Of a stretch of DNA of 12,976 nt, positions 419-11,741 are shown piece after piece. How positions within the stretch are numbered: position 1 is the stretch's first letter; each line of letters starts with the position of its first letter. Source of the stretch: a virus (lineage: Duplodnaviria > Heunggongvirae > Uroviricota > Caudoviricetes); the IMG/VR virus record IMGVR_UViG_2778261571_000007, one strand, 5' to 3'. The notes below the pieces were generated by a model. That model saw only the letters and a list, made by a program, of their open reading frames with translations. It was not told the DNA's origin and searched no databases. Made by a program: the position numbers and the translations under genes.

Positions 419-574
419 TTACTCCTCAGGTTCGTAAGCTGTGAAGACAGCGACCTCCGTCTGACCGGTTCGGATTCGCACCTCGCAGAGGTCTTTCCTC
501 GTTACCAGTGCCGTCACTATGACGGTTAAACAGATGACAATCAGTGCGACTAACATCGCCTTTTGCTGCTTCAT
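419..574 (-). CDS. hok: Hok/Gef family type I toxin (51 aa, small membrane-damaging peptide)
   Basis: The translation MKQQKAMLVALIVICLTVIVTALVTRKDLCEVRIRTGQTEVAVFTAYEPEE matches the Hok/Gef signature (N-terminal transmembrane helix, conserved RKDLCE...R.G..EVA.F.AYE) and is near-identical in pattern to E. coli HokC/HokD as I recall them. ATG at 572-574 has a GGAG Shine-Dalgarno upstream. Confidence 0.9.
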   Translation of the reverse strand: MKQQKAMLVALIVICLTVIVTALVTRKDLCEVRIRTGQTEVAVFTAYEPEE

Positions 575-631
575 AGCCTGCTTCTCCTTGCCTTCCGGCG
601 CGTAAGAGGCTAACCTACATGTGCAAAGCAT
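419..631 (-). CDS. Mok-like in-frame upstream extension of hok (70 aa), putative translational-coupling ORF
   Basis: The ORF starts at the ATG at 631 and reads in frame into hok. Its N-terminal extension MLCTCRLASYAPEGKEKQA resembles the MokC extension pattern. Whether it is translated is not determinable from sequence. Confidence 0.45.
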   Translation of the reverse strand: MLCTCRLASYAPEGKEKQAMKQQKAMLVALIVICLTVIVTALVTRKDLCEVRIRTGQTEVAVFTAYEPEE

Positions 632-1294
632 GAAATTGGCCTCAGATTAATGTTAAGCGTCTTGCCGGACGCGTAATGTTATCTGGGGCTTTTCTCTATC
701 TGCCTTTGGTGTTCATGCCTGAGGCAGATAGCCTCAAGCACCCGCAGCAATTCTACTTAACTCCCGTCACCTCGCCAATATAAAATCAATCAGAAAGGCG
801 ATCCATAAGAACAACAGCAAGACAATAAATTGCCATTACAGCCGCAATAGCTAGCGCACATTTGAGAACCAGCACGACAACCTCCTGTATTGGACGTACA
901 CCAGTTCTGATAAATATGAGGCTGTCTCATCATTGATTCAATATAACTATTGGGTATAGTTTCTGTGATTTTGTTCTGTAGAAATGGAACACAACAACCA
1001 GTCACCACCAGCACTTCTTTAAATACGCCAAGTCCGACGCAAGCTAACCTTCTAGTCCGCTTTGAGCGAGGAGCGGACCAAACCCGGCCAACTGACTCTT
1101 AAAGGGGCCGCAGGAATTTTTCGTCTGAACTTTCGAAGCTCCTCTCCCTGAAGACAGAAAACTTCTGTGTGCTGTGGGAATATTGAATCTTTGCCTTAGA
1201 TATAAATAATTTTATCCCGCCTGAAGTTTACATTATTTTATTTATCTGTTTTTCTAAATCAGACTGCACTCCTTACTTAAATCAGGAGCCAGTC

Positions 1295-2494
1295 ATGCCA
1301 TTTGTTATTTATGTGTTTACTATCAGTGCCTTTGCGCTCGGACTCGCGGAATTTGTCCCCATTGGGCTGACAGACGTTATGGCTCAGGGGTTGTGTGTGG
1401 GTGTGGAGCAGACCGGGGCAGCGGTTACAACCTATGCACTGGGGGCAACGTTCGCGGCACCCGTACTGTCTGCGCTGACAGCAAGCTGGAGCCGGAAAAA
1501 TGTAATGCTTACAACTGCCGTTGTGTTTACTGCCGGTAGTCTGGCGGCCGCGTTTGCAGCCACATTACCTCAGCTCCTGTTAGCGCGGTTCATTGCTGGT
1601 CTGGGACACGGCCTGTTTCTGGCTGCGGCATCCAGTACCGCAGCTCGTCTTGCTGGACCGGGTAAAGCAGGCAGAGCGGTGGCTGTGGTATTTGGTGGCT
1701 TTACTCTGGCGATGGCAATCGGCGTACCGCTGAGTACATGGTTGGGGGGGGTGGTCTCATGGCGTCCAGTTCTCGGCGCTATTGCCGCTTTTGGCGCGTT
1801 CGGATTCCTTGGACTGTTGTTCGGTATGAAAGATCCCGTACGCAGCGTGCCCGGTGAACATAGTGACTCAGCAATGCAGAATATCGGCATGCTGTTTAAC
1901 CGTAAGTTGCTGGCCGGCGCGCTGGTTACGGTGCTGGCGTATGCAGGCTCGTTTACGGATTACACCTTTATCGCACCTATTCTGACGCAGGTGACAGGGG
2001 TTACCGGAGCAACGGTGAGTCTGTTTATGCTGGTTTACGGTATTACAGCTGCGGTAGGTAATATTCTTGGTGGGAAACTTACCGACAGCATGGGGGTTAA
2101 TCGTGCCAATATACTCATCATTAGCGGCATTGTTGTTGTCGTGCTTGGTATGTGGCTGCTGTCATCCTCACCGGTGAGCATGGGCATTCTGGTTGCGCTG
2201 CTGGGTATGGTGACATTTGCCGCAGTGCCGGCACTGCAGGCCCGTCTGATTGGTGTCGCTGAGCAACATGCTCCTCATGCGCATGGTGTTGCTGCCGGCC
2301 TGAATATTGCGGGCTTCAACTCAGGTATAGCGCTGGGATCAGTACTGGGCAGCATTACTATAAGCCACGCCGGTATCGTGTATACCGGTATCAGCGGTGC
2401 GATTGTTTCTCTGCTCGGCCTGCTGTTGCTGCTTGCACAAATCCGTCGCAGCCACAGTCGTAAATTTCAACAGGTTAAAATCGTAGGCCAGTAA
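1295..2494 (+). CDS. MFS transporter, DHA1-type efflux pump (SotB/YdeA/NepI-like), 399 aa
   Basis: The protein is highly hydrophobic with a 12-helix-like pattern. It has an N-terminal EFVPIGL motif and a loop G(x)GKAGRAVAVVFGGFTLAMAIGVPL that align to the SotB-type sugar/purine efflux family. A GGAG Shine-Dalgarno lies 8 nt upstream. Confidence 0.88.
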   Translation: MPFVIYVFTISAFALGLAEFVPIGLTDVMAQGLCVGVEQTGAAVTTYALGATFAAPVLSALTASWSRKNVMLTTAVVFTAGSLAAAFAATLPQLLLARFIAGLGHGLFLAAASSTAARLAGPGKAGRAVAVVFGGFTLAMAIGVPLSTWLGGVVSWRPVLGAIAAFGAFGFLGLLFGMKDPVRSVPGEHSDSAMQNIGMLFNRKLLAGALVTVLAYAGSFTDYTFIAPILTQVTGVTGATVSLFMLVYGITAAVGNILGGKLTDSMGVNRANILIISGIVVVVLGMWLLSSSPVSMGILVALLGMVTFAAVPALQARLIGVAEQHAPHAHGVAAGLNIAGFNSGIALGSVLGSITISHAGIVYTGISGAIVSLLGLLLLLAQIRRSHSRKFQQVKIVGQ

Positions 2495-2505
2495 AGGGAG
2501 GTTAT

Positions 2506-3198
2506 ATGCTTACCCGTGAAAATATGCTTAATGGCACATTTGTCAGGGTGCATGAAGCGCTGCTCCCGGCGAATATGCTCTGGGACGCTGAAAAAATACG
2601 CGCATCAATGAACTCTACTCTGGAGGAGCGCCCGACGGGTGCTCCTGTCTGGATATTTGCCTACGGGTCATTGATGTGGAATCCCGTGCTGGCGATTGAA
2701 GAAATGCAACGGGCCCGTCTGAAAGGATTGCAGCGCAGTTTCTGCATTCGTTTGATATCCGGACGAGCGACTCCTGATGTCCCCGGCAGGATGTTATCGC
2801 TCGACGAAGGTGGAATTACCGAAGGTATTGCGTTCAGACTGCCGGAATCGACTCTTATTAATGAGCTGGAAATTGTCTGGACGCGCGAGATGATAACCGG
2901 TCTTTACCGTCCGGTCTGGGCAGACGTTTCGCTAGGAAACGGTGAGGAAATTCAGGCGCTGGCTTTCGTATCAGACAGACTGCATCCGCATTATGAACAG
3001 GACAATCTTACAGCGACCGTAGCGTTGAGCATCGCATCTGCCCGTGGAGACATTGGCACGAATGCAGATTATGTATGGAAACTGCAGGCCACTCTGGGTG
3101 CGTTGGGAATACGGGATGATTACGTGAGTGAACTGGCCCTTGCTCTGCATGAGGCTCCCTGTAACGATAAACTTCATCAGCGAGGCGCTTCACTATGA
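2506..3198 (+). CDS. ChaC-like gamma-glutamylcyclotransferase (glutathione-specific GGCT family), 230 aa
   Basis: The translation carries the hallmark YGSLMWNP motif and aligns along its length to E. coli ChaC as I recall it (e.g. PVWIFAYGSLMWNP, FC(I/L)RL, GRMLSLDEGG, WTREMITG). A strong AGGGAGG Shine-Dalgarno lies upstream; the gene starts 12 bp after the MFS stop. Confidence 0.85.
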   Translation: MLTRENMLNGTFVRVHEALLPANMLWDAEKIRASMNSTLEERPTGAPVWIFAYGSLMWNPVLAIEEMQRARLKGLQRSFCIRLISGRATPDVPGRMLSLDEGGITEGIAFRLPESTLINELEIVWTREMITGLYRPVWADVSLGNGEEIQALAFVSDRLHPHYEQDNLTATVALSIASARGDIGTNADYVWKLQATLGALGIRDDYVSELALALHEAPCNDKLHQRGASL

Positions 3199-4076
3199 GC
3201 CATCTGAGCCATCTGCGAACGTTTCTTGAGGCCTATCGCTCTGGCTCCTTTTCAAAGGCGGCAGAACTACTGGGCATCACTCAGCCCGCGGCGTCACAGC
3301 ATATCCAGTCTCTTGAGACTCTGGTTGGTAAGCGTCTGTTTATCAGGCAGGCCAGAGGCGTGACGGCAACCGAAGCTGCGGATGAGCTTGCCCGCTCAGT
3401 TTCACCCTTCATTGATGGTCTGGAAGAAAAGCTGTCCTCTTTCCGGTCAGGCTCTGTACGCGGGGGAACAATTAATCTGGCAGGACCGCCAGATTTTATT
3501 CATTCCCGGCTTGGGACAGTAATGGCTCCACTAATGAAGGAGGGGTATCGCCTACGCTTTCATACCGGCAATAAGCAACGTATTTATTCCCTTTTGCATG
3601 ACGGGAGCGCCGATCTCGCTGTTACCGCATCTATGCCTGATGACCGTCTGTACGGCTATGCACATCTACTGACTGAACGCATGCTCCTTGTTCATGCTCC
3701 CGCCATGTCAGAGATCATCGGATCAGAACCTGGTGCTGAAACGCTTGCCTCATTACCGCTGATTGCTTATGACGAAGAGTTGCCACTGATTAGAGCGCTC
3801 TGGGCCTCCATGTTTCAGAGAGCCCCTGAGATGCAGGCTACATTCACCATTCCGGATTTACGTATTATCCGCGACTTGGTCTGTGACGGCCACGGGTGGA
3901 CAGTGCTGCCGGATTATCACTGTGACAATGACCTGAAAAGTGGTCGCCTGATTTCAGTGACACCTGCAGACCTCGCTCCGACTAATCATCTTTATCTGGT
4001 CTGGAACAAAAGGACGGCTAATAACAGCCGAACCGCCTATGTTCGGGATTACATTCTTAAAACGTTTCCGCGTTGA
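3195..4076 (+). CDS. LysR-family transcriptional regulator, 293 aa
   Basis: The N-terminus has the LysR helix-turn-helix signature (LRTFLEAYRSGSFSKAAELLGITQPAASQHIQSLE), and the length and C-terminal domain are typical of the family. The start codon overlaps the ChaC-like stop (ATGA), implying co-transcription. Confidence 0.9.
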   Translation: MSHLSHLRTFLEAYRSGSFSKAAELLGITQPAASQHIQSLETLVGKRLFIRQARGVTATEAADELARSVSPFIDGLEEKLSSFRSGSVRGGTINLAGPPDFIHSRLGTVMAPLMKEGYRLRFHTGNKQRIYSLLHDGSADLAVTASMPDDRLYGYAHLLTERMLLVHAPAMSEIIGSEPGAETLASLPLIAYDEELPLIRALWASMFQRAPEMQATFTIPDLRIIRDLVCDGHGWTVLPDYHCDNDLKSGRLISVTPADLAPTNHLYLVWNKRTANNSRTAYVRDYILKTFPR

Positions 4077-4120
4077 TGTTTGAAACGGATGATTGGCGAT
4101 GCGTATCATAAGTTACGTAT

Positions 4121-4150
4121 GTCCGCTTCTGGCACAAAGCAGACGCCCAC
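4121..4150. repeat. Copy A of a 30-bp imperfect direct repeat (GTCCGCTTCTGGCACAAAGCAGACGCCCAC)
   Basis: 24 of 30 positions match copy B at 7794-7823 in the same orientation. It lies in the convergent intergenic gap between the LysR gene and the DUF2254-like gene. Confidence 0.6.
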
Positions 4151-4206
4151 TCTCACGCGAATGCTTTGCCCTTGACTTGCCAACAACCGTATCGCTTGCT
4201 CCGCAA

Positions 4207-5484
4207 CTATGGTTTTTTATTAGAATCTTCGCCACTAAATAAATTATAATAAATTGATTTTATTAGATATCTGTCAGAATCTATATGGTCAGCACGAGTA
4301 GCATGCTCTAATGTTTCAAATGCTAGGGTTTGTGCGGCTTCAGCAAAAATTCCAGGCCAACCCTTACTCAGCATCGACAGTCCTTTAAGTACCCTTATCT
4401 GAATTTCCCTCATACTGGCACCATCGCGCGCAACAGGTGAGAAAAAGTCTTCAAGTAGATCGTTATTCTGAAGTGGTGCAACATGTACAGAAGGATATTT
4501 CACTTCTATTTCATCAGATTTATTCTGCGCGTAAGCGGAAAGTATACGTACACCTCTGCCAATGACATCAATGGCGGTTCCAGGATCGTTCACTGCGGGG
4601 GAAAGGGCTCGGCAGGCTATTTCGGCCATGACGCTAAGACAAAATCGGGGGTCCTGAGCAAATGAACGTACATCCGAGACAATAATCGTCTCAAGTAAAT
4701 CGGTGCTGATTGATGACTCCTGGCCCTGACTCAGGTACAAAACTGGCGTGGACGGATGTATGAAACTGCCCGGCTGCGCCACGAGGTATACATGACGGGG
4801 ATCATTGGTCAGCAGCTTGCTGAGTTTCACCATATCAACATATTCAACATAGCCAATCTTTTTCGGATAAACTGCAACCGTTCCTTTCGGCTGTTCATTG
4901 TTCTCAAGCCATGGATATCCGCCGAGACAGGGATTTCTTGCTCTCGCAATAAATGTTTCGATGGCCGCCTGTTCTACTTTTGCCGTTGTCTCACCAACCC
5001 TCCCCAGAGAGGTCAAATGCTGTATCCAGCGAAGCAATGTGATGAGGATTAAGGCAATGACAACCAGTGTTACAATGAATAAAATGACTCTCCCCCTTTC
5101 TCCATAAGCTCCCATATTGAGGGCAATAATCCCTACCAGACTGAAGAGAAAAGAACCGATGAAGGTGGCCAGTACATTTTGTGTGGTGACGTCTTCAACA
5201 ACTAAACGAGTAGCTCTGGGAGTCACATTAGTAGTGGCTGAACCGTAGGCTGTGACCATGATGCTCAGCGAAAATGTGGTCACTGCCAGCATACTCGATG
5301 CCAGTATGTTCAGAATGTTATCGACTGCTTCCGCACCAACCTTCACGGAAACCGACTCAGGTATCATTGATTTAAAAAGAATTGATAAAAGGGCCGTTAT
5401 TATTGCGACAATTGCGAATAACGTTGCCCTGAACCATAGTTTTTTAAATGTCTGCTTCAGCATCCATTTCCAGCGTGAAATCAT
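4207..5484 (-). CDS. Integral membrane protein with a large C-terminal soluble domain, DUF2254-like, about 425 aa
   Basis: A long ORF with N-terminal transmembrane segments and a conserved-looking SPAVNDPGTAID motif. The start is probably the ATG at 5482-5484 (GAGGGA Shine-Dalgarno 9 nt upstream); the ORF track's ATG at 5499 has no Shine-Dalgarno. The family assignment is from memory and moderately certain. Confidence 0.8.
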   Translation of the reverse strand: MISRWKWMLKQTFKKLWFRATLFAIVAIITALLSILFKSMIPESVSVKVGAEAVDNILNILASSMLAVTTFSLSIMVTAYGSATTNVTPRATRLVVEDVTTQNVLATFIGSFLFSLVGIIALNMGAYGERGRVILFIVTLVVIALILITLLRWIQHLTSLGRVGETTAKVEQAAIETFIARARNPCLGGYPWLENNEQPKGTVAVYPKKIGYVEYVDMVKLSKLLTNDPRHVYLVAQPGSFIHPSTPVLYLSQGQESSISTDLLETIIVSDVRSFAQDPRFCLSVMAEIACRALSPAVNDPGTAIDVIGRGVRILSAYAQNKSDEIEVKYPSVHVAPLQNNDLLEDFFSPVARDGASMREIQIRVLKGLSMLSKGWPGIFAEAAQTLAFETLEHATRADHIDSDRYLIKSIYYNLFSGEDSNKKP

Positions 5485-5509
5485 TCTGCATTCCCTCATA
5501 TTGCAGCCG

Positions 5510-5541
5510 GGATAAATAAATGCCGCCTCTGTGGCGGCATG
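5510..5541 (-). terminator. Rho-independent terminator downstream of the BetT-like gene
   Basis: On the minus strand: ATGCCGCC-ACAGA-GGCGGCAT (8-bp GC-rich stem) followed directly by TTTATTTAT, starting 7 nt after the BetT-like stop. Confidence 0.7.
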
Positions 5542-5547
5542 TTGCTG

Positions 5548-7551
5548 TTAACGAACCAGATGCAGGAAGTGCAGGTGTTTTTCGTACTGGTCCAGTATGT
5601 CATTAATCAGCTGTTCCTGATTCCAGCCCATTACATCATAATTTTGGCCGCCCTCTTTGAGATAGACTTCAGCGCGATAATATCGATGTTGTTCACTCTG
5701 CTGCTCATCATTATCCAGCGCAGCGAGCGCGAAGGTCGGTGAGTTATACCCGCGAAGCCTCACTTCATATATATAATTCAGCTCGTTGCCCAAATCGACT
5801 TCAAGGCGAATACGATCCTCGGCGGCGTCACTGATGTGGCTTATCGTTCCCTGCTTGTTAAGTTCCTCCTGAACCAGCGTCATGGCGGGTTGGATAATGT
5901 CGTCCATAAAACGTTTCACAAGAGAGCGCTTCGGCAAATACGCGATATTGCGTAACCTTCTCTGCCAGGGAATTGGGTTACGTGCAGCCGTAGGAGCAAT
6001 AGTCGCCATGCTAAGGCTTTCACGTTTGGTCAAATCCCGACGCAGGGCTTTTAACAGTCCGTATATGGATATTAATAAGATAACTGAGAAGGGCAATGCA
6101 CTCGCTATCGTTACGGTTTGCAACGCACTCAGCCCCCCTGCGATCAGCAGGGCAATAGCAACAACGCCCATGAGCGATGCCCAGAAAATTCGCTGCCAGA
6201 CGGGCGTGTTTGCCACCCCACCTGATGCCAGAGTATCCACAACCATTGCCCCCGAATCAGCAGACGTTACAAAGAAGACGATGACCATCGCCATTGCAAT
6301 GAATGACAGCACGGAAGAGAACGGGAAATGCTCCAGGAAATTAAACAGGGCAAGCGCAACATCCTGCTGAACGGTATTGGCGAGGTCAGTGGCGCCCTGG
6401 TTCATGATGAGATAGATGGCGCTGTTTCCAAACACCGTCATCCACATGAGCGTAAAGCCGGCGGGAACAAACAACACGCCAGTCACGAACTCACGAATTG
6501 TCCTGCCGCGGGAAACGCGTGCAATGAACATACCTACAAACGGCGACCATGAAAGCCACCATCCCCAGTATAATAATGTCCAGCCCCCCAGCCAGTTGCT
6601 CGACTTGGGTTCATACGCGTAAAGGTTGAACGTTTTACTCACCAGTTCCGACAGATAACCACCCGTATTTTCCACAAATGACTTCAGCAGAAGCACAGTG
6701 GGACCCAGGCACAAGACCAGCGCCAGGAGCAACACCGCCAGGCCCAGATTAAGCTCAGACAGGATGCGTATTCCCTTGTCCAGGCCGGACACCACCGAAA
6801 TCGTCGCTAACCCCGTGATGACCACGATCAAAATGACCTGTACCGTTTCATTGATGGGCACGCCGAAAAGATGGTTCAAACCGGCATTCACCTGCAATAC
6901 ACCGTAACCCAGCGATGTTGCAACGCCAAAGACAGTGCCTATCACGGCGAAGATATCAACCGCGTGGCCTATAGGCCCGTAAATGCGATCGCCGATAATG
7001 GGATAGAGCGCAGAACGCAGCGTTAAAGGCAGACCGTGACGGTAACTGAAAAAGGCCAGAATCAGCGCCACGATGGCATAAATTGCCCATGCGTGCAGAC
7101 CCCAGTGGAAGAACGTCAGGCGCATGGCTTCCTTCGCTGCCGCAACGGTCTCTGGAGTGCCGACAGGTGGCGAAAGATAATGCATCACAGGTTCGGCAAC
7201 GCCAAAGAACATCAGGCCGATCCCCATCCCTGCCGAAAAAAGCATCGCGAACCAGGAGTGGTAGCTGAAATCAGGCTGCGCATGGTCTGGGCCCAGCTTT
7301 ATATCACCGTAACGTGAGAGTCCAAGGAACGTGACGCTCAGTAAAATCAGGGCCACAGCAAGTATGTAGAACCAGCTGGCATTCGTGAAGATTTGTTGCT
7401 GAAGTAGTTTAAAATTTTTGTCGGCGACATCCGGGAATACGGCGGCAAAGGCGACAAGAAGGAAAATTAGCAAAGCAGATGTAAAGAATACCGCTTTGTT
7501 AATCTGGCTTGTAGACTTCTTTGGGGTTGTATCATTTTCACTCATAATCAT
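5548..7551 (-). CDS. BCCT-family transporter, BetT-like (choline/betaine/carnitine family), 667 aa
   Basis: The translation aligns throughout with E. coli BetT as I recall it (e.g. KLGP(E/D)..P(E/D)FS..SW.AMLF.AG.GI.LMFF.VAEP, WSPFVG(M/L)F(I/L)ARISRGRTIR(E/Q)FV, VTSADSGA) and includes a long C-terminal cytoplasmic tail. No betI/betB/betA genes are adjacent. Confidence 0.9.
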   Translation of the reverse strand: MIMSENDTTPKKSTSQINKAVFFTSALLIFLLVAFAAVFPDVADKNFKLLQQQIFTNASWFYILAVALILLSVTFLGLSRYGDIKLGPDHAQPDFSYHSWFAMLFSAGMGIGLMFFGVAEPVMHYLSPPVGTPETVAAAKEAMRLTFFHWGLHAWAIYAIVALILAFFSYRHGLPLTLRSALYPIIGDRIYGPIGHAVDIFAVIGTVFGVATSLGYGVLQVNAGLNHLFGVPINETVQVILIVVITGLATISVVSGLDKGIRILSELNLGLAVLLLALVLCLGPTVLLLKSFVENTGGYLSELVSKTFNLYAYEPKSSNWLGGWTLLYWGWWLSWSPFVGMFIARVSRGRTIREFVTGVLFVPAGFTLMWMTVFGNSAIYLIMNQGATDLANTVQQDVALALFNFLEHFPFSSVLSFIAMAMVIVFFVTSADSGAMVVDTLASGGVANTPVWQRIFWASLMGVVAIALLIAGGLSALQTVTIASALPFSVILLISIYGLLKALRRDLTKRESLSMATIAPTAARNPIPWQRRLRNIAYLPKRSLVKRFMDDIIQPAMTLVQEELNKQGTISHISDAAEDRIRLEVDLGNELNYIYEVRLRGYNSPTFALAALDNDEQQSEQHRYYRAEVYLKEGGQNYDVMGWNQEQLINDILDQYEKHLHFLHLVR

Positions 7552-7793
7552 TTATTCCATTAATTAAATCCGCACTGGATAGAAGGTACTACCTCTCACA
7601 GAGTAGCAAAGTTCAACTGGCTATGCGGGGTTAATCGGAATGCATGGTGGAATGAGTGCCGATACAAATCATCCTATATTCTAAGGAGTTTTAAGTTACT
7701 CAGCCTGCCAATTACTGGGGCATTTAATTTGTATGATCTGTATCAAAGCTGGGATATAAGTTAAGTGAAGTATATTAGGCACGAATTACCAGC

Positions 7794-7823
7794 GTCTGCT
7801 CTTGGCACAAAGCGGACAACCAC
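7794..7823. repeat. Copy B of the 30-bp imperfect direct repeat (GTCTGCTCTTGGCACAAAGCGGACAACCAC)
   Basis: Matches copy A (4121-4150) at 24 of 30 positions. It lies between the BetT-like start and the end of the phage 140-aa gene. Confidence 0.6.
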
Positions 7824-7885
7824 GCTAGCTCTACCCTGTGCCACAAAATGTCAATTTGCATCTGAACTAATGCACTTTAATCTCG

Positions 7886-8308
7886 TCACTTCAATAAATA
7901 CCGAACATCCCCCTGATAAAACGACAATATGCGCTGCATAACTTCGCTCTTCCGGCACTCGCGACAGATTATGTTTAGGCGACTGTCGTAGCGACGTATT
8001 TCTCCGTCAGGTAATGACCAGATAAGGTCCGGATCAACCACAACCGGTTTCTTCAGCTTTGCCCTCGATAATTTTTTGCGGGCATTTTGCCAGTCTTTAC
8101 GAGCCTGTTCAGACGGGAATAACCCGTAGCCAGAATTGTATACATCGCCACTGGCAACCAGCTCTCTGGCCAGAACGCTCATCAGATATCTTGTTGCCCC
8201 AGTTTTAGCTTCCAGTTGTCGTAACGTCTCGCGCCCACTCTGGCGTACGAGTTCAAGAACCTGCCCTTTAATTTTTTCCCGCTCTTCTTGTGTAAAAACT
8301 TTTGCCAC
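7886..8308 (-). CDS. Phage-associated hypothetical protein (140 aa), last gene of the rightward early operon; function unknown
   Basis: GTG start at 8306-8308 with a strong AGGAGGG Shine-Dalgarno 5 nt upstream. It lies 40 bp downstream of the replisome-organizer gene. The basic protein has a C-terminal CRECRK motif and no recognisable helicase or helicase-loader motifs. Confidence 0.6.
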   Translation of the reverse strand: MAKVFTQEEREKIKGQVLELVRQSGRETLRQLEAKTGATRYLMSVLARELVASGDVYNSGYGLFPSEQARKDWQNARKKLSRAKLKKPVVVDPDLIWSLPDGEIRRYDSRLNIICRECRKSEVMQRILSFYQGDVRYLLK

Positions 8309-8348
8309 AAGCCCTCCTGAAAATTACCTCATGACCAGAAATTAACAC

Positions 8349-9419
8349 TTACCCCCTGAAGCCCGGCGGAATTTCGTTATCCGGTTCAGAAATATGATTC
8401 ACACAACGCTGGTTGTTCGTGCCGCTTACCGGGAGCAACCAGGGGTTCTCAAAATTCCGGTCCGGTCCAAAAAACGTCGTCGCTCGCTGAACAAATTCCG
8501 TTCCCGTTTTCCCGGTAGCCGCCAAGTATCTTGCGTAACGCCTCACGCCATCCAGCATGGCCTCTGGTGGCACCCCCTCGCGTAATCTGGCCTTCCAGGC
8601 ACTGAAAGCGGATTTCTTCGGGTTTGCCCCAGCACGCAACGGGTACTCCCGCCAGACCTGTTCGAACACATCCGGATAATCCACTCGTCCCACAGACTGC
8701 CCGGTGTTTTCCGGGACTACCCGATCGGCTTCCCGCTGAATGGCGGAATCGGCTTCAGGCTGCTGCAGTTGGTGTGATTGCTCCGCCCTTGCGGTCATCA
8801 CCTGCTGCACAGCGCCCGAATCGGCTTTCAGCGCATACGCTGAATCGGCTTCCGGTGTCGTGCCTGCTGGCTGACCAAGATTGACGGTCTGAACATCCCC
8901 TGCCTGGTTCGTGGCGTTTTTTACGCCATGGACCATAGTGTTTTGATCTTCTTGATCTGTATCTTTATCTGTATCTTTATCTGTCGTGACTCGTCGTGAC
9001 ATGTGCGTGACATTTCGTGACGCGCCGTGACAATCGCCATTTTGTTCCCGCTTTCTTTCCCTCTCTCGCTGCGCCCTCTTGCGCTCTGCAGGAGATTTTG
9101 CGGTTTGCGAAATATTGCCGTTGTCCTCTTTAAGCACCTGGCGTTTTTCCCATCCAGTGATTAAATCACCATCAAGTACCCGCCCCTGCATCGTCTGCAA
9201 AATTGAATCAATTACCTCTTCTGTCACGTCGAGCGCACTTGCCAAATCTTCTGTCGTGACATCAATGTGACCTCGCGTGACATTTCGTGACGCGCTCACC
9301 AGGAGGTGGATATACACTGCCATCACTGTTGCAATTGGCTGTCCTGACACCCTGGCAATTGTTCGCCACTTAGGGTCATTTGGCATGTCATGCCATAATC
9401 TGAGCCAGGCGTTAGCCAT
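8349..9419 (-). CDS. Phage replication initiator / replisome organizer (lambda O-like role), about 356 aa
   Basis: The N-terminus MANAWLRLWHDMPNDPKW resembles the phage replisome-organizer N-terminal domain pattern. The C-terminal segment F.QVW..YP...G...K..A..AW...L......E.......Y resembles the lambda O C-terminal region. Iteron-like repeats lie inside the gene, as in lambda ori. Start is probably the ATG at 9417-9419 (GAGGTGA Shine-Dalgarno); an in-frame GTG at 9425 is also possible. Confidence 0.75.
   Translation of the reverse strand: MANAWLRLWHDMPNDPKWRTIARVSGQPIATVMAVYIHLLVSASRNVTRGHIDVTTEDLASALDVTEEVIDSILQTMQGRVLDGDLITGWEKRQVLKEDNGNISQTAKSPAERKRAQRERERKREQNGDCHGASRNVTHMSRRVTTDKDTDKDTDQEDQNTMVHGVKNATNQAGDVQTVNLGQPAGTTPEADSAYALKADSGAVQQVMTARAEQSHQLQQPEADSAIQREADRVVPENTGQSVGRVDYPDVFEQVWREYPLRAGANPKKSAFSAWKARLREGVPPEAMLDGVRRYARYLAATGKTGTEFVQRATTFFGPDRNFENPWLLPVSGTNNQRCVNHISEPDNEIPPGFRG
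8944..9031. repeat. Putative replication origin core: tandem ATCTKT hexamers followed by five helically phased CGTGAC iterons
   Basis: ATCT recurs at 8946-8976 as (ATCTGT ATCTTT)x2 ATCTGT. CGTGAC then occurs at 8985, 8995, 9006, 9016 and 9026, a 10-11 bp periodicity, all in the same orientation inside the replication gene. Confidence 0.6.
9218..9291. repeat. Second iteron cluster inside the replication gene
   Basis: (C/T)GTGAC occurs at 9255, 9266, 9276 and 9286 with 10-11 bp phasing. One inverted GTCACG lies at 9223, and CTTCTGTC is duplicated at 9218 and 9248. The 21-mer GCGTGACATTTCGTGACGCGC at 9276-9296 is an exact copy of 9005-9025. Confidence 0.55.
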
Positions 9420-9490
9420 ACTCACCTCTTTTGATACCGAATCTTTTTACTCACAAATTGCCGGAAGTGATCCGGTATGAATATTGCGAG

Positions 9491-9916
9491 TCAATGCACA
9501 GCCACAATATTTCCTGCAGGGCCACCACGATTCATCTGGTTGAAACCAGCGATCGCCACTGCGACAAAATCATCAGCGTCTCTCACCAGTCGTTCCCGCG
9601 TCTCCACTAGTTCCCGAAAATAGGCTGAGCTATGGCTGCGCATTCGGGCCACCAGCAGAGGTGGCATTGCTTTTTCGATAGCTGGTAACAACGCCTGAAT
9701 TTTTTCAACTGCATCAGGGGTGTCTTTCTCTACCCAGCGGAAAATTTTCTGGGTATTGCGAGCCAGGGCTTCCGGATGGCTGTCGTCATACAGTTCTGGG
9801 AACGTCATACCCAGTTCAAAATAAGCCCTGGTTATTTCAGCTGCCGGAACTTTTTCACCGTCCGGATGCGCCCAGGCATTCATCGCCATGCGGATGTGTT
9901 CATGCTTGATTTTCAT
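9491..9916 (-). CDS. YdaT-like protein (lambdoid CII-position gene of Rac-type prophages), 141 aa
   Basis: The position directly after the Cro-like gene and before the replication gene, and the length (141 aa), match ydaT of Rac-type prophages. AGGAG Shine-Dalgarno 8 nt upstream. The start overlaps the 3' end of the upstream gene by 17 bp. Confidence 0.65.
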   Translation of the reverse strand: MKIKHEHIRMAMNAWAHPDGEKVPAAEITRAYFELGMTFPELYDDSHPEALARNTQKIFRWVEKDTPDAVEKIQALLPAIEKAMPPLLVARMRSHSSAYFRELVETRERLVRDADDFVAVAIAGFNQMNRGGPAGNIVAVH

Positions 9917-10181
9917 GAATCAAGCTCCTAGAAAGTGGTTGTGTTAACATTTTGGTATCTTCCAGCTCGGGCCAAATATTCATCCAATCAAAAGGCCTTA
10001 GTTGCTGACGTGTAACTTCACCATTACTGGCTCGCTCAATAAGGACACATAACGATGCCCCTAACACTTGACCTTTACTCAATGCCTTTCTTAGATAACC
10101 GATGCTGGTACCACACTCGCATGCAAACATACGCTGTTCATCTGACGAAAGAGAATTGAGAAATATTCTTAATTCTTCCAT
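9900..10181 (-). CDS. Cro-like helix-turn-helix regulator (YdaS family), 93 aa
   Basis: Divergent from the repressor gene. It contains a helix-turn-helix-like segment ...CGTSIGYLRKALSKGQ... followed by GEVTRQQLRP, typical of the YdaS/Cro-like family. AAGGAG Shine-Dalgarno 7 nt upstream of the ATG at 10179-10181. Confidence 0.7.
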   Translation of the reverse strand: MEELRIFLNSLSSDEQRMFACECGTSIGYLRKALSKGQVLGASLCVLIERASNGEVTRQQLRPFDWMNIWPELEDTKMLTQPLSRSLIHENQA

Positions 10182-10204
10182 AGCTACTCCTTAGTAAACA
10201 CAGC

Positions 10205-10286
10205 AAAGAATACCCATAGGTAAACAAAAGTCAATACCCACAGGTTGTTTACCTTGCAGTAATCGCATCTATTATTTACCTATGGA
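10205..10286. promoter_or_regulatory. Divergent immunity-region promoter/operator (OR-like): repeated TACCCA(T/C)AGG / AGGTAAACA motifs with candidate promoter elements on both strands
   Basis: TACCCATAGGTAAACA at 10211-10226; TACCCACAGGTTGTTTACC at 10235-10253; TTTACCTATGG at 10275-10285, overlapping the repressor start codon. Minus-strand -35 TTGACT (plus 10229-10234) and -10 TATTCT (plus 10207-10212) with a 16-bp spacer precede the Cro-like gene. Plus-strand -10 TATTAT at 10270-10275 ends 6 nt before the repressor ATG. Confidence 0.6.
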
Positions 10287-10701
10287 CAAATATGAATTTA
10301 GACGACAGCAACTCATCAAAATTCGTGATGAGAAATGCGATGGTAAAGCGGTTAACGTGGCCAGAAAGATCGGGCGCGAGCCTTCTTATGTATCAAGAAT
10401 GTTGTACCCAGAGGGGAAAAAGGGAAAAAAACGGATCGCTGATGATATGGTGGAGATTATCGAAGAGTCCTTTGGGTTACCCCGGGGATGGATGGATGGT
10501 ATCGTTTCATCATCAACGAACACAGCCTCCAGTTATGAAACAAGGGTTCTAACGCCACGACAACGTATTTTTTTAGATCTCTTAGACGAACTGCCAGAAA
10601 GTGAAGCGGATAACTTATTAAAAACTCTTGAAGAGAAAAAACAGTATTACAATATGATCTACGAAGAAATCCGTAAAAAGAAAGCACAAAACGCATCATA
10701 G
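10282..10701 (+). CDS. Prophage repressor, RacR/CI-position gene, 139 aa
   Basis: Divergent from the Cro-like gene and flanked on both sides by the same operator-like motif. It has a putative helix-turn-helix segment (AVNVARKIGREPSYVSRML) and an acidic C-terminal domain. No Shine-Dalgarno is present, which is consistent with a leaderless transcript. Identity with RacR is inferred from synteny, not sequence recall. Confidence 0.7.
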   Translation: MDKYEFRRQQLIKIRDEKCDGKAVNVARKIGREPSYVSRMLYPEGKKGKKRIADDMVEIIEESFGLPRGWMDGIVSSSTNTASSYETRVLTPRQRIFLDLLDELPESEADNLLKTLEEKKQYYNMIYEEIRKKKAQNAS

Positions 10702-10744
10702 CTCACCAAACAACTAGTCACCAGTTAAGACACCGCAAAAAGTT

Positions 10745-10780
10745 ACCCATGGGTATTTACTTTTTAAATACCTATGGGTA
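10745..10780. promoter_or_regulatory. OL-like operator / hairpin downstream of the repressor gene: TACCCATGGGTATTTA-CTTTTT-AAATACCTATGGGTA
   Basis: A near-perfect 16-bp inverted repeat carries the same TACCCATRGGTA motif seen in the divergent promoter region. It is followed by TCCTTCTTTT, so it could also act as the repressor-gene terminator. Confidence 0.55.
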
Positions 10781-10955
10781 TCCTTCTTTTCATACCAACC
10801 CACCCCGCCCCACAGAATGCAGGGCAATACTTCGAGTTACCAGGCAGTGGTCAGGGGTTAAGTAGCCAGCCCGAGGCGTAAGAACATGACGGCGGGATTC
10901 AAATTTTGCAGTGCAGCAGTTAGTTCCGCCACCCGGCGTTAAGGGGAGAGATAAG

Positions 10956-11090
10956 ATGGTGCATTACGAAGTAGTTCAGTATTTGATGGATTGTTGCGGT
11001 ATCACTTACAACCAGGCTGTGCAGGCTTTACGCAGCAACGACTGGGATCTCTGGCAGGCAGAAGTCGCTATACGTAGCAACAAGATGTGA
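10956..11090 (+). CDS. Small phage ORF, 44 aa (YdaG-position)
   Basis: ATG at 10956 has an AAGGGGAGAG Shine-Dalgarno 6 nt upstream. Translation: MVHYEVVQYLMDCCGITYNQAVQALRSNDWDLWQAEVAIRSNKM. Its size and position between the repressor and sieB match ydaG of the Rac prophage. It is below the ORF-track size cut-off. Confidence 0.5.
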   Translation: MVHYEVVQYLMDCCGITYNQAVQALRSNDWDLWQAEVAIRSNKM

Positions 11091-11100
11091 GATTCGCAAA

Positions 11101-11256
11101 ATGCAAAAAATCGACCTCGGCAACAACGAATCCCTGGTGTGCGGCGTGTTCCCCAACCAGGATGGAACGTTCACTGCCATGACGTATACCAAAAGCAAAA
11201 CATTTAAAACCGAAACTGGTGCGCGCCGATGGTTGGAGAAGCACACAGTAAGCTAA
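11101..11256 (+). CDS. Small phage ORF, 51 aa (YdaF-position)
   Basis: ATG at 11101. Translation: MQKIDLGNNESLVCGVFPNQDGTFTAMTYTKSKTFKTETGARRWLEKHTVS. Size and position match ydaF of Rac. The Shine-Dalgarno is weak. Its 3' end overlaps the convergent sieB stop by 4 bp. Confidence 0.45.
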   Translation: MQKIDLGNNESLVCGVFPNQDGTFTAMTYTKSKTFKTETGARRWLEKHTVS

Positions 11257-11741
11257 CGATTAAAACGTCTACTCCTGCTGTTCCAGAATAACTTCATAAA
11301 ATGGGAGTATTTTTCGGTGACGAGATAATAAGAACAGTTTGCGCTATCACTCTGATGTTGAATGATGCCCTTCCGTTCTAATTTTTTCATAACCGGGTTA
11401 CGGCAAGGAGAAGTGATAATAAGATTTCCTGTTTTAAGGAAATCTTTAAATACAGCGATTTCTTTCTCAGATAAACGAAGCAATACTCGTTGCTCTGGTA
11501 GTAATGAATAATGCTTTTGAATATGTGCTCGCAATCTTGAGAAGGAAATGGCGACCACGAAAGAAAAGGCAAAAACGATAATCTGAAAGAGCCAAGGCAT
11601 TTCAGTATAAGCATTGAATGCGACAGTAAACTCTTTCGGTATCAGCCAGAGAGTGAGACCAAAAATGATAATCGTATACATAAGTCTTTCGAGTGGCTCG
11701 TTAGCAAAAAGTTTCAACAATGGAGTAAATACATCCAACAT
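11253..11741 (-). CDS. sieB: Superinfection exclusion protein B (SieB), 162 aa
   Basis: Begins MLDVFTPLLKLFANEPLERLMYTIIIFGLTLWLIP and has two transmembrane segments with a basic C-terminal part, the SieB family pattern. Start is the ATG at 11739-11741 with a GAGAG Shine-Dalgarno. The 266-aa ORF in the track is an unsupported upstream extension of this gene. Confidence 0.75.
   Translation of the reverse strand: MLDVFTPLLKLFANEPLERLMYTIIIFGLTLWLIPKEFTVAFNAYTEMPWLFQIIVFAFSFVVAISFSRLRAHIQKHYSLLPEQRVLLRLSEKEIAVFKDFLKTGNLIITSPCRNPVMKKLERKGIIQHQSDSANCSYYLVTEKYSHFMKLFWNSRSRRFNR

What the first reader, a model, noticed from the sequence alone, without database searches (positions are those of the whole stretch)
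10205..10790. Repressor gene flanked on both sides by TACCCATRGGTA operator-like palindromes (OR/OL-like layout)
The same motif occurs three times in the divergent repressor/Cro promoter region (10211-10286), overlapping a candidate minus-strand promoter (TTGACT-16 bp-TATTCT). It occurs again as a near-perfect 16-bp inverted repeat 45 bp downstream of the repressor gene (10745-10780). This mirrors the lambda immunity region, where the repressor binds operators on both sides of its gene, and gives a concrete operator prediction.
Basis: partly seen in the sequence, partly recalled or inferred. Interest (0 to 1): 0.55.

Follow-up and report, generated by a model that had tools for sequence, protein, structure and literature searches.

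The report
Prophage repressor operators on both sides
These short palindromes are very probably the binding sites through which a lambda-style prophage repressor shuts off the two early promoters on either side of its own gene; this is a well-supported but conceptually ordinary immunity switch of an E. coli Rac-type prophage.

Summary
Within 2 mismatches, TACCCATRGGTA occurs only in this 600-bp stretch of the 13-kb window (0 of 200 shuffles reach the count). The window is a Rac-type E. coli prophage that is heteroimmune to K-12 Rac.

The first 75 residues of the 139-aa protein are 65-80% identical to the DNA-binding domain of true phage CI repressors, such as mEp043 cI. In 43 related loci from Gamma- and Betaproteobacteria, TACC-N4-GGTA lies at fixed offsets (-73, -48, -33) before the repressor ATG. 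In 34 of them it also occurs as a downstream pair 25-26 bp apart, bracketing a -35 hexamer and overlapping a -10.

So 10744-10780 is an OL/PL cassette (OL2, TTTACT, 17 bp, OL1/TATCCT) that reads into ydaG-ydaF. It is not merely a terminator.

One correction is needed.

The repressor lacks the S24 autocleavage domain. It carries a DicA-like C-terminal helical domain instead, so induction is probably not by RecA cleavage.

No binding experiment exists. Verdict: new member of a known kind, interest about 0.3.

The parts
10282..10701 (+). Repressor gene (139 aa). The CI-family HTH N-domain is aa 1-75 (10282-10506). A disordered linker covers aa 77-87. A DicA-like helical C-domain covers aa 88-139 (10543-10698).
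   Evidence: Homologs; mEp043 cI is 65% identical over aa 1-86; alignment; AF2 model pLDDT 85.7; Foldseek best match is phage SPC32H Rep, 72 columns at rmsd 1.2; DicA C-terminal hit E 2.8e-5; no similarity to K-12 RacR.
9900..10181 (-). Cro-like (YdaS-family) gene, divergent from the repressor gene. It is the first gene of the PR-type operon.
   Evidence: Weak Pfam YdaS hit; PHROG 35 transcriptional repressor; homologs sit divergently next to the cI N-domain gene in 34 loci.
10211..10222 (.). OR1, TACCCATAGGTA. It lies in the spacer of PR and overlaps its -10.
   Evidence: offset -71 to -73 in all loci; 22.0 bits, top site of the window.
10235..10246 (.). OR2, TACCCACAGGTT. It abuts the PR -35 and is centred about -41.5 from the predicted PRM start.
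   Evidence: The imperfect right half (GGTT) is conserved across the family. 11.9 bits.
10250..10261 (.). OR3, TACCTTGCAGTA. It overlaps the PRM -35 and spacer.
   Evidence: Offset -32/-33 is conserved in 37 loci. Close relatives have a perfect GGTA here. 11.0 bits.
10207..10234 (-). PR-type promoter TTGACT-16-TATTCT, reading into cro-like, ydaT-like and the replication genes.
   Evidence: The TCAA adjoining OR2 is conserved in the family.
10248..10275 (+). PRM-type promoter TTTACC-16-TATTAT. The -10 ends 7 nt before the ATG, so the repressor mRNA is predicted to be leaderless.
   Evidence: A TAnnnT lies 6-8 nt before the ATG, with no Shine-Dalgarno sequence, in many family loci. The analogy with lambda cI and paaR2 comes from PMC8630535.
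10277..10288 (.). It may be a weak lineage-specific fourth site or a chance match.
   Evidence: 2 mismatches; 7.1 bits, 8th in the window; kept in close E. coli and Salmonella relatives but absent in Yersinia and beyond.
10744..10755 (.). OL2, TACCCATGGGTA, immediately upstream of the PL -35.
   Evidence: 19.6 bits.
10756..10784 (+). PL-type promoter TTTACT-17-TATCCT, reading into ydaG, ydaF and the left operon. The predicted start is about 10791.
   Evidence: Geometry is identical to 34 family loci and to K-12 Rac TTGACA-17-TATAGT. The 99.6% homology to K-12 begins at 10791. With 8 of 12 matches it falls below the scan threshold.
10769..10780 (.). OL1, TACCTATGGGTA, in the PL spacer. Its last TA begins the -10.
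   Evidence: 19.0 bits.
10740..10794 (+). RNA hairpin formed by OL2 and OL1, followed by UCCUUCUUUU. It could also terminate the repressor transcript as a secondary role.
   Evidence: Terminator scan; folding energy -22.9 kcal/mol, z -5.3. There is no inter-site covariation, and the T-tail occurs in only a few loci.

Best explanation
This is the immunity switch of a Rac-type lambdoid prophage of E. coli.

The 139-aa protein is a CI-type repressor. Its N-terminal helix-turn-helix domain presumably binds, as a dimer, the palindrome TTACC-YRYR-GGTAA. Three sites lie between the repressor gene and the divergent cro-like gene.
- OR1 (10211) sits inside the PR-type promoter.
- OR2 (10235) lies next to the PR -35 and about 41.5 bp upstream of the predicted start of the repressor's own promoter.
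- OR3 (10250) sits inside that promoter.

Two more sites (OL2 at 10744, OL1 at 10769) bracket the -35 and overlap the -10 of a PL-type promoter. That promoter reads rightward in the window into ydaG, ydaF and the kilR-recET-xis-int operon.

Repressor on OR1/OR2 and OL1/OL2 would shut both early promoters. At OR2 it may activate its own leaderless transcript, and at OR3 it may limit it. The cro-like protein probably competes for the same sites.

The C-terminal half is a DicA-like helical domain rather than an S24 protease. Inactivation is therefore more likely to come through an antirepressor or some other route than through RecA-stimulated self-cleavage.

Shown here: the existence of the sites, their positions and conservation, their co-variation with repressor type, protein homology and fold. 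Inferred: binding itself, promoter activity, activation at OR2, competition by Cro, and the route of induction.
For: - The motif is confined to this region of the window: 8 strand-hits against 1.09 expected, 0 of 200 shuffles.
- A weight matrix trained only on other loci puts the top five sites of the window at 10211, 10744, 10769, 10235 and 10250.
- The N-domain is 65-80% identical to S24-type CI repressors, including phage mEp043 cI. The recognition helix EPSYVSRML is nearly invariant. The AF2 model shows an HTH (helices 23-30 and 34-40), and the best structural match is a phage repressor.
- In 43 loci there are 129 perfect TACC-N4-GGTA sites against 5.1 expected: 65 at -90..-20 from the ATG, 57 in pairs 23-27 bp apart, and 7 elsewhere.
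- The downstream pair follows the pattern [site]TTGACx[7-8 nt][site]. Its -10 is TAnnnT in 34 of 34 loci.
- Heteroimmune controls agree. K-12 Rac carries its footprinted RacR palindrome TAGGC-N3-GCCTA three times in the racR-ydaS spacer (PMC9638921), and two more copies flank TTGACA-17-TATAGT downstream of racR. Phage Tritos has GTAC-type repeats at both positions.
- Homology to K-12 starts at 10791. Homology to Tritos breaks exactly over cro+OR+cI-N-domain and again over OL/PL.
- In five Klebsiella loci the cro homolog is absent but the sites remain, so the sites track the cI N-domain.
- In K-12, ydaG, ydaF and kilR rise 40-70-fold when racR expression falls (PMC6765115).
- An OR/OL layout is documented for the short repressors DicA and PaaR2 (PMC10448788; PMC8630535).
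Against: - There are no binding or transcription data for this protein or this motif. No paper in the searchable library contains the motif.
- The PL hexamers in this window are weak (TTTACT/TATCCT, 8 of 12) and the promoter scan did not list them.
- OR3 here has a mismatch in an otherwise invariant position (AGTA).
- OR2 and OR3 are only 15 bp apart centre to centre, unlike lambda, so the cooperative logic may differ.
- The oligomeric state of the DicA-like C-domain is unknown, so cooperativity and OR-OL looping are speculation.
- The prophage is cryptic and carries cargo genes, so part of the switch may be decaying.
Confidence: 0.85

Rival explanations
1. The downstream inverted repeat (10744-10780) is only an intrinsic terminator of the repressor transcript and has no operator role.
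For: The scan flags a 16-pair stem, a 5-nt loop and a TCCTTCTTTT tail. The RNA fold is -22.9 kcal/mol, z -5.3. There is no other terminator between the stop codon (10701) and ydaG.
Against: Two tandem copies of any palindrome form a hairpin automatically. In 34 loci the centres of the two sites show no complementarity beyond that of sites taken from different loci (2.12 against 2.14 of 4). T-rich tails occur in only a handful of loci. The pair is often more than 1 kb from the repressor gene, behind other genes. What is conserved between and after the sites is a -35 and a TAnnnT -10. K-12 Rac and Tritos have their own operator types at the same place. A dual role (operators that also terminate) is not excluded for this window.
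Confidence: 0.05
2. The palindromes are bound mainly by the cro-like (YdaS-family) protein or by another factor such as YdaT or a host protein, and not by the 139-aa protein.
For: The cro-like gene co-occurs with the motif in 34 loci. In lambda-type switches Cro does bind the same operators. YdaS and PaaR2 footprints overlap in CP-933P (PMC8630535).
Against: Five Klebsiella loci keep the cI N-domain and the sites (at -73 and -33, plus the downstream pair) but lack the cro homolog. The invariant half-site parallels the invariant recognition helix of the cI N-domain. YdaT-type proteins recognise TTGATT-N6-AATCAA, a different motif that is present separately at 9906-9923 (PMC9986795, PMC11879457). 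Shared binding by Cro is expected and is part of the main explanation.
Confidence: 0.07
3. The repeats are a chance or compositional feature, or relics of a mobile-element end, with no regulatory role.
For: None beyond the shortness of the motif.
Against: 0 of 200 shuffles reach the count. The motif is about 25-fold enriched across 334 kb of related loci at fixed offsets. The half-sites are invariant while centres and flanks drift, even among close relatives.
Confidence: 0.01

Closest known systems
Bacteriophage lambda immunity region (cI, cro, OR1-3, OL1-3, PR, PRM, PL)
   Same: The repressor and cro genes are divergent. Three operators overlap PR and PRM. A second operator cluster overlaps a leftward early promoter downstream of the repressor gene. 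OR2 lies about -42 from the PRM start. The repressor mRNA is predicted to be leaderless.
   Different: The operator is a 12-14-bp TTACC-YRYR-GGTAA instead of lambda's 17-mer. There are two clear OL sites rather than three. OR2-OR3 spacing is 15 bp rather than 23. OR and OL are only about 560 bp apart rather than 2.3 kb. The repressor has no S24 autocleavage domain, and there are no rexAB genes between cI and PL.
Phage mEp043 cI and related S24-type CI repressors (Salmonella, Klebsiella, Pantoea, Edwardsiella, Xanthomonas, Neisseria prophages)
   Same: The N-terminal DNA-binding domain is the same (65-80% identity), the TACC-N4-GGTA sites lie at the same offsets, and the PL/OL cassette is the same.
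   Different: Those proteins are 221-242 aa and carry a LexA-like S24 peptidase domain. The window protein replaces it with a 50-aa helical domain. As far as the searchable literature shows, the operators of mEp043 have not been described experimentally either.
K-12 Rac prophage RacR / YdaS / YdaT module
   Same: The prophage backbone and gene order are the same (ydaT, ydaS/cro, repressor, ydaG, ydaF, sieB, kilR...), with 99.6% identity from 10791 onward. The operator layout is the same, including a pair downstream of the repressor gene. The YdaT-box is also present.
   Different: The repressor is unrelated in sequence (BLASTP E 2.3). The operator is different: TAGGC-N3-GCCTA (PMC9638921). The two prophages are therefore heteroimmune.
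DicA of prophage Qin, and the CI of phage Tritos
   Same: All are short repressors (135-139 aa) with a homologous C-terminal helical domain and no Ala-Gly cleavage site. Operators are documented on both sides of dicA, at dicCp and dicBp (PMC10448788).
   Different: The N-terminal DNA-binding domain (XRE type) and the operators differ. Relief of DicA by the antirepressor Rem is established, whereas no antirepressor has been identified for the window protein.
PaaR2 / YdaS / YdaT switch of CP-933P (E. coli O157:H7)
   Same: It is a Rac-like cryptic prophage with a CI-like repressor. It has OR-type sites, a PL933P with OL sites, and a leaderless repressor mRNA (PMC8630535).
   Different: The operator sequence differs (GTTTAGTAA repeats), and a toxin-antitoxin pair follows the repressor gene there.

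Membership tests
Lambdoid CI/Cro immunity switch with OR and OL | Divergent repressor and cro genes separated by a short spacer with about three repeated operators that overlap two back-to-back promoters | tested here: met
   Sites at 10211, 10235 and 10250. PR is TTGACT-16-TATTCT and PRM is TTTACC-16-TATTAT.
Lambdoid CI/Cro immunity switch with OR and OL | A second operator cluster overlapping an early promoter on the far side of the repressor gene (OL/PL) | tested here: met
   Sites at 10744 and 10769 bracket TTTACT-17-TATCCT. The same cassette occurs in 34 of 43 loci, with TAnnnT in all 34. K-12 homology starts at 10791.
Lambdoid CI/Cro immunity switch with OR and OL | Repressor with an N-terminal helix-turn-helix domain homologous to known phage cI proteins | tested here: met
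   65% identity to mEp043 cI over aa 1-86. AF2 predicts an HTH, and Foldseek hits phage Rep and XRE folds.
Lambdoid CI/Cro immunity switch with OR and OL | C-terminal S24 (LexA-like) domain allowing RecA-stimulated self-cleavage | tested here: not met
   There is no PF00717 hit, and the protein ends at residue 139. The C-terminal 50 aa align with the DicA/Tritos C-domain.
Lambdoid CI/Cro immunity switch with OR and OL | Direct, sequence-specific and cooperative binding of repressor (and Cro) to the sites; repression of PR and PL | not testable with these tools
   This needs EMSA or footprinting and reporter assays.
Lambdoid CI/Cro immunity switch with OR and OL | Leaderless repressor transcript from PRM | tested here: inconclusive
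   The -10 ends 7 nt before the ATG, there is no Shine-Dalgarno sequence, and the pattern recurs in the family. No 5'-end data are available.
K-12 Rac RacR immunity type | Repressor homologous to RacR | tested here: not met
   BLASTP best E-value 2.3.
K-12 Rac RacR immunity type | Operators of the form (T/A)TAGGC-N3-GCCTA(T/A) | tested here: not met
   That motif is present in K-12. The window instead has TACC-N4-GGTA, and the best score in K-12 with the window-family matrix is 4.9 bits.
K-12 Rac RacR immunity type | Position in a Rac-type prophage between ydaS/ydaT and ydaG/ydaF, at the ttcA integration site | tested here: met
   Annotated context in strain CP53; homology map.
DicA-type short repressors | C-terminal helical domain of about 50 aa shared with DicA | tested here: inconclusive
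   NCBIfam NF007257 matches aa 86-136 at E 2.8e-5 but scores 23.9 bits against a cut-off of 101, because only the C-domain matches. Nucleotide identity to the 3' end of Tritos CI is 76%.
DicA-type short repressors | XRE-type N-domain of DicA and its operators | tested here: not met
   The N-domain aligns with the mEp043-type cI proteins and not with Tritos/DicA.
Rho-independent terminator | Stable hairpin followed by a U-tract | tested here: met
   for this window only.
Rho-independent terminator | Hairpin maintained by compensatory change, and U-tract conserved in relatives | tested here: not met
   Pairing between the site centres is 2.12 against 2.14 of 4 in the control. A tail with at least 7 T in 10 occurs in only 5 of 34 loci.

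The most novel reading that the evidence does not exclude
The OL pair in this lineage may have two uses. As DNA it would be the operator pair of PL. As RNA it would form a terminator hairpin that stops the leaderless repressor transcript 40 nt after its stop codon. Together with OR only about 560 bp away, it could form an unusually tight repression loop.

More broadly, the TTACC-YRYR-GGTAA operator and the 75-aa N-domain make up a large CI family without a Pfam model, spread over Gamma- and Betaproteobacteria. Its DNA-binding module has been recombined onto at least three different C-terminal modules (S24 peptidases of different types and a DicA-like helical domain). The operator specificity stays the same while the induction pathway is switched.
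Probability: 0.2. Interest if true: 0.45.

Novelty: new member of a known kind. Interest (0 to 1): 0.3.

Why it matters
The work gives a concrete, testable operator (TTACC-YRYR-GGTAA) and a promoter map for an immunity type carried by about 140 of 5,426 complete E. coli genomes. The same operator applies to a widespread CI family that includes the functional phage mEp043, and no operator for that family appears in the searchable literature.

It also offers a clean natural experiment. The same prophage backbone carries three different repressor/operator sets (this one, K-12 RacR and Tritos/DicA-type), exchanged precisely at the promoter boundaries. The same DNA-binding domain is fused either to an SOS-cleavable domain or to a non-cleavable one.

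This is useful for annotating prophages, for predicting heteroimmunity, and for designing orthogonal repressor/operator pairs. It does not change how such switches are understood.

Tried and rejected
- Pfam gave no hit for the 139-aa protein. A sequence search of the PDB gave only marginal winged-helix (ADAR1 Z-alpha) matches at E about 0.08, which I disregarded.
- BLASTP against K-12 RacR found no similarity, so the protein is not a RacR ortholog.
- A literature search for the motif in six spellings returned 0 papers. The mEp043 papers do not deal with its operators. The 2026 racR preprint could not be opened.
- 'Terminator only' was rejected after the covariation and tail analysis.
- An Rfam scan of the whole window found nothing in the immunity region or in the conserved PL leader, only sok at 569-743.
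It was rerun without that row.
Full report
**What the window is.** Region 9800-11300 is 100% identical to the chromosomes of many E. coli strains. In strain CP53 it lies in a Rac-type prophage next to ttcA. The gene order there is DUF977, a replication protein, a YdaT-family protein, a small 'transcriptional regulator', a 139-aa 'hypothetical protein', ydaG, ydaF, sieB, kilR, ydaE, racC, recE, recT, ralR, rcbA, xisR and intR. Only 139 of 5,426 complete genomes carry at least 80% of this 1.5-kb stretch, whereas 3,868 match part of it. The backbone is therefore common and this immunity region is a minority type.

**Checking the observation.** Within 2 mismatches, TACCCATRGGTA occurs only at 10211, 10235, 10277, 10744 and 10769. 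That is 8 strand-hits against 1.09 expected, and no shuffle out of 200 reaches 8. The repeat finder recovers the same sites, plus the 21-nt, 86% complementary inverted repeat 10739-10759 / 10765-10785. The promoter scan finds TTGACT-16-TATTCT on the minus strand (10234..10207) and TTTACC-16-TATTAT on the plus strand (10248-10275). It also finds one terminator-like hairpin at 10744-10780 followed by TCCTTCTTTT.

**What the protein is.**
- Pfam has no model for the 139-aa protein, and it shows no similarity to K-12 RacR.
- A search of 5.8 billion proteins shows two kinds of relatives. Full-length relatives of 135-139 aa occur in E. coli, Salmonella, Serratia and Yersinia. There are also hundreds of 221-242-aa 'LexA family / S24 peptidase' repressors whose first ~75-85 residues are 65-80% identical to it.
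- Among sequenced phages, the cI of the lambdoid phage mEp043 matches residues 1-86 at 65%. The CI of phage Tritos matches residues 21-139 at 39.5%. The DNA-level homology to Tritos is confined to the C-terminal domain codons.
- The alignment shows a modular protein. It has a conserved N-domain (MDKYE..RR..L..IRD...GKA..VARKI.REPSYVSRMLYPEGKKGKKRIADDM...IE..F.LPRGWMDG), a variable linker, and then either an S24 domain or a 50-aa helical domain.
- The helical domain gives a sub-threshold match to the C-terminus of DicA (NCBIfam NF007257, residues 86-136, E 2.8e-5).
- The AlphaFold2 model has mean pLDDT 85.7. It shows helices 3-18, 23-30, 34-40 and 54-63, a disordered stretch at 77-87, and a helical hairpin at 92-138.
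- The best structural match is the repressor of Salmonella phage SPC32H (5d50, 72 columns at 1.2 Å), followed by XRE-type regulators. Helix 34-40 (SYVSRML) occupies the recognition-helix position and is nearly invariant in the family.

**Comparative test of the operator idea.** I collected 41 loci from one-genome-per-species contigs and added phages mEp043 and CharmingMan. In these 43 loci (334 kb) there are 129 perfect TACC-N4-GGTA sites where about 5 are expected.
- 65 lie between -90 and -20 of the repressor ATG, a zone that is 0.9% of the sequence.
- 57 belong to pairs 23-27 bp apart.
- Only 7 lie elsewhere, which is about the chance number.

The upstream sites sit at fixed offsets of -73, -48 and -33. 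The aligned spacers show the pattern tTTACCnnnnGGTAAa, 9 nt, TCAATACCnnnnGGttaTTTACCnnnnGGTAA, about 20 nt containing TAnnnT, then ATGGAYAAATAY. This holds from Xanthomonas, Neisseria and Paraburkholderia through to E. coli. The consensus is TTACC-YRYR-GGTAA, and the second site always has a degenerate right half.

A weight matrix built only from the 169 sites of these other loci picks out the top five positions of the window: 10211 (22.0 bits), 10744 (19.6), 10769 (19.0), 10235 (11.9) and 10250 (11.0). Close relatives have TACCTTGCGGTA, TACCTTATGGTA or TACCTATTGGTA there.

About 1.9 such hits are expected per window. Half of it is the conserved Met-Asp-Lys coding sequence, and the upstream half is not kept in Yersinia or beyond. 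It may be a lineage-specific weak site, comparable to RacR O3 over the racR ATG (PMC9638921), but the evidence does not separate it from chance.

**The downstream pair is a PL/OL cassette.**
- In 34 of 43 loci a pair of sites 25-26 bp apart lies downstream of the repressor gene, anywhere from 43 bp to 3.4 kb after the stop codon.
- The hexamer that follows the first site is TTGACx, TAGACA or similar. The hexamer that begins with the last TA of the second site is TAnnnT in all 34 loci.
- The window has TACCCATGGGTA-TTTACT-ttttaaa-TACCTATGGGTA-TCCT, which reads as -35 TTTACT, a 17-bp spacer and -10 TATCCT.
- This is the mirror of the PR side read on the minus strand: AACCTGTGGGTA-TTGACT-tttgtt-TACCTATGGGTA-TTCT.
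- The centres of the two sites show no more complementarity within a locus than between loci (2.12 against 2.14 pairs of 4). T-rich tails occur in only a few loci. The RNA hairpin (-22.9 kcal/mol) is therefore a by-product of two palindromes in tandem. A secondary terminator role in this lineage remains possible.

**Heteroimmune controls.** K-12 RacR was footprinted on three to four (T/A)TAGGC-N3-GCCTA(T/A) operators between racR and ydaS (PMC9638921; PMC11879457). In the K-12 sequence I find the same palindrome twice more, downstream of racR, flanking TTGACA-17-TATAGT and spaced 25 bp apart. That is exactly the geometry seen in the window.

Phage Tritos, which shares the C-domain but has an XRE N-domain, has GTAC-type repeats at both positions.

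The homology map is sharp.
- K-12 matches the window at 99.6% from 10791 onward, about 7 nt after the predicted -10, which is the expected PL start. It does not match between about 9922 and 10790.
- Tritos matches 7786-9928 at 95.8%, then 10585-10700 (the C-domain), then 10798 onward.
- Cro+OR+N-domain and OL/PL therefore form two separate specificity patches.

Five Klebsiella loci lack the cro homolog yet keep the sites, whereas 34 loci have both. The sites therefore follow the cI N-domain. In K-12, loss of racR expression raises ydaG, ydaF, ydaE, racC and kilR 40-70-fold (PMC6765115). This fits a repressor-controlled PL ahead of ydaG.

**Mechanism.** The likely mechanism is as follows (inference unless marked otherwise).
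- Repressor dimers occupy OR1 (PR spacer and -10) and OR2 (abutting the PR -35), and OL1/OL2 at PL. This silences the cro-ydaT-replication operon and the ydaG-kilR-recET-xis-int operon.
- OR2 is centred about 41.5 bp upstream of the predicted PRM start at 10282, the position from which lambda CI activates PRM.
- OR3 covers the PRM -35 and spacer and would give negative autoregulation.
- The PRM -10 ends 7 nt before the ATG and there is no Shine-Dalgarno sequence. The transcript is therefore predicted to be leaderless, as for lambda cI and paaR2 (PMC8630535).
- The cro-like protein probably uses the same sites.
- There is no S24 domain (shown). The C-domain resembles DicA, a short repressor that is not RecA-cleaved and is relieved by the antirepressor Rem (PMC10448788). 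Induction therefore probably does not go through self-cleavage.

**Comparison and novelty.** An OR/OL layout is textbook for lambda. It has also been documented for the short repressors of cryptic prophages: DicA (PMC10448788), PaaR2 (PMC8630535) and, for OR, RacR (PMC9638921). What is new here is modest.
- The operator sequence of this immunity type, and of the wider mEp043-type cI family, is absent from the searchable literature.
- The corrected site map is new.
- The domain-swap picture is new.

I class this as a new member of a known kind, with interest about 0.3.

**Limits.** Everything rests on sequence, homology and conservation. No binding, transcription-start or termination data exist for this element. 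The PL hexamers here are weak, and the oligomeric state of the repressor is unknown.

Noticed in passing
L002 (K-12 MG1655) 2131-2143 and 2156-2168, i.e. downstream of racR, before ydaG: Two further copies of the published RacR operator palindrome (TAGGTAATGCCTA, TAGGCTATGCCTA) flank a near-consensus promoter, TTGACA-17-TATAGT, that reads into ydaG. This looks like an OL/PL analogue of K-12 Rac. The RacR operator paper does not mention ydaG, ydaF or this region.
   Followed up: partly
window 9906-9923: A perfect YdaT-box, TTGATT-N6-AATCAA, has the ydaT-like start codon (CAT at 9914-9916) in its spacer. The surrounding 30 bp are the only part of the immunity region still 97% identical to K-12 Rac. 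This matches the published CII-like YdaT site (PMC9986795, PMC11879457).
   Followed up: partly
window 10791-10955: The ~165-nt leader between the predicted PL start and ydaG begins with the C-rich run CCCACCCCGCCCC. It is conserved across heteroimmune prophages (99.6% to K-12 Rac, 89% to phage Tritos). It has no Rfam match, and its role is unknown (nut-like site or structured leader?).
   Followed up: no
window 1295-7551: Five non-phage cargo genes sit inside the prophage between hokD and the DUF977 gene: an MFS transporter, a gamma-glutamylcyclotransferase, a LysR regulator, a DUF2254 protein and a BCCT transporter (annotation of strain CP53).
   Followed up: no
window 419-743: A hokD toxin gene (419-574, minus strand) has a full-length sok antitoxin RNA (569-743, minus strand; Rfam RF01794, 116 bits).
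   Followed up: no
L004 (phage Tritos) 2860-2920 and 3400-3460: Phage Tritos shares the replication/ydaT genes and the repressor C-domain with the window, but it has an XRE-type N-domain and GTAC-containing repeats at both the OR and OL positions. This is a clean example of a split specificity cassette.
   Followed up: partly
L009, L011, L013-L015 (Klebsiella spp.): These loci have the same cI N-domain and the TACC-N4-GGTA sites at -73 and -33, plus a downstream pair. They lack the cro homolog and the middle (-48) site, so the switch architecture differs.
   Followed up: no
hits H1-H3 (strains TA8571, XD35, W409): In some strains the otherwise identical region is split into two pieces with an IS1 transposase annotated under the match. 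The immunity region is therefore interrupted by IS1 in part of the population.
   Followed up: no
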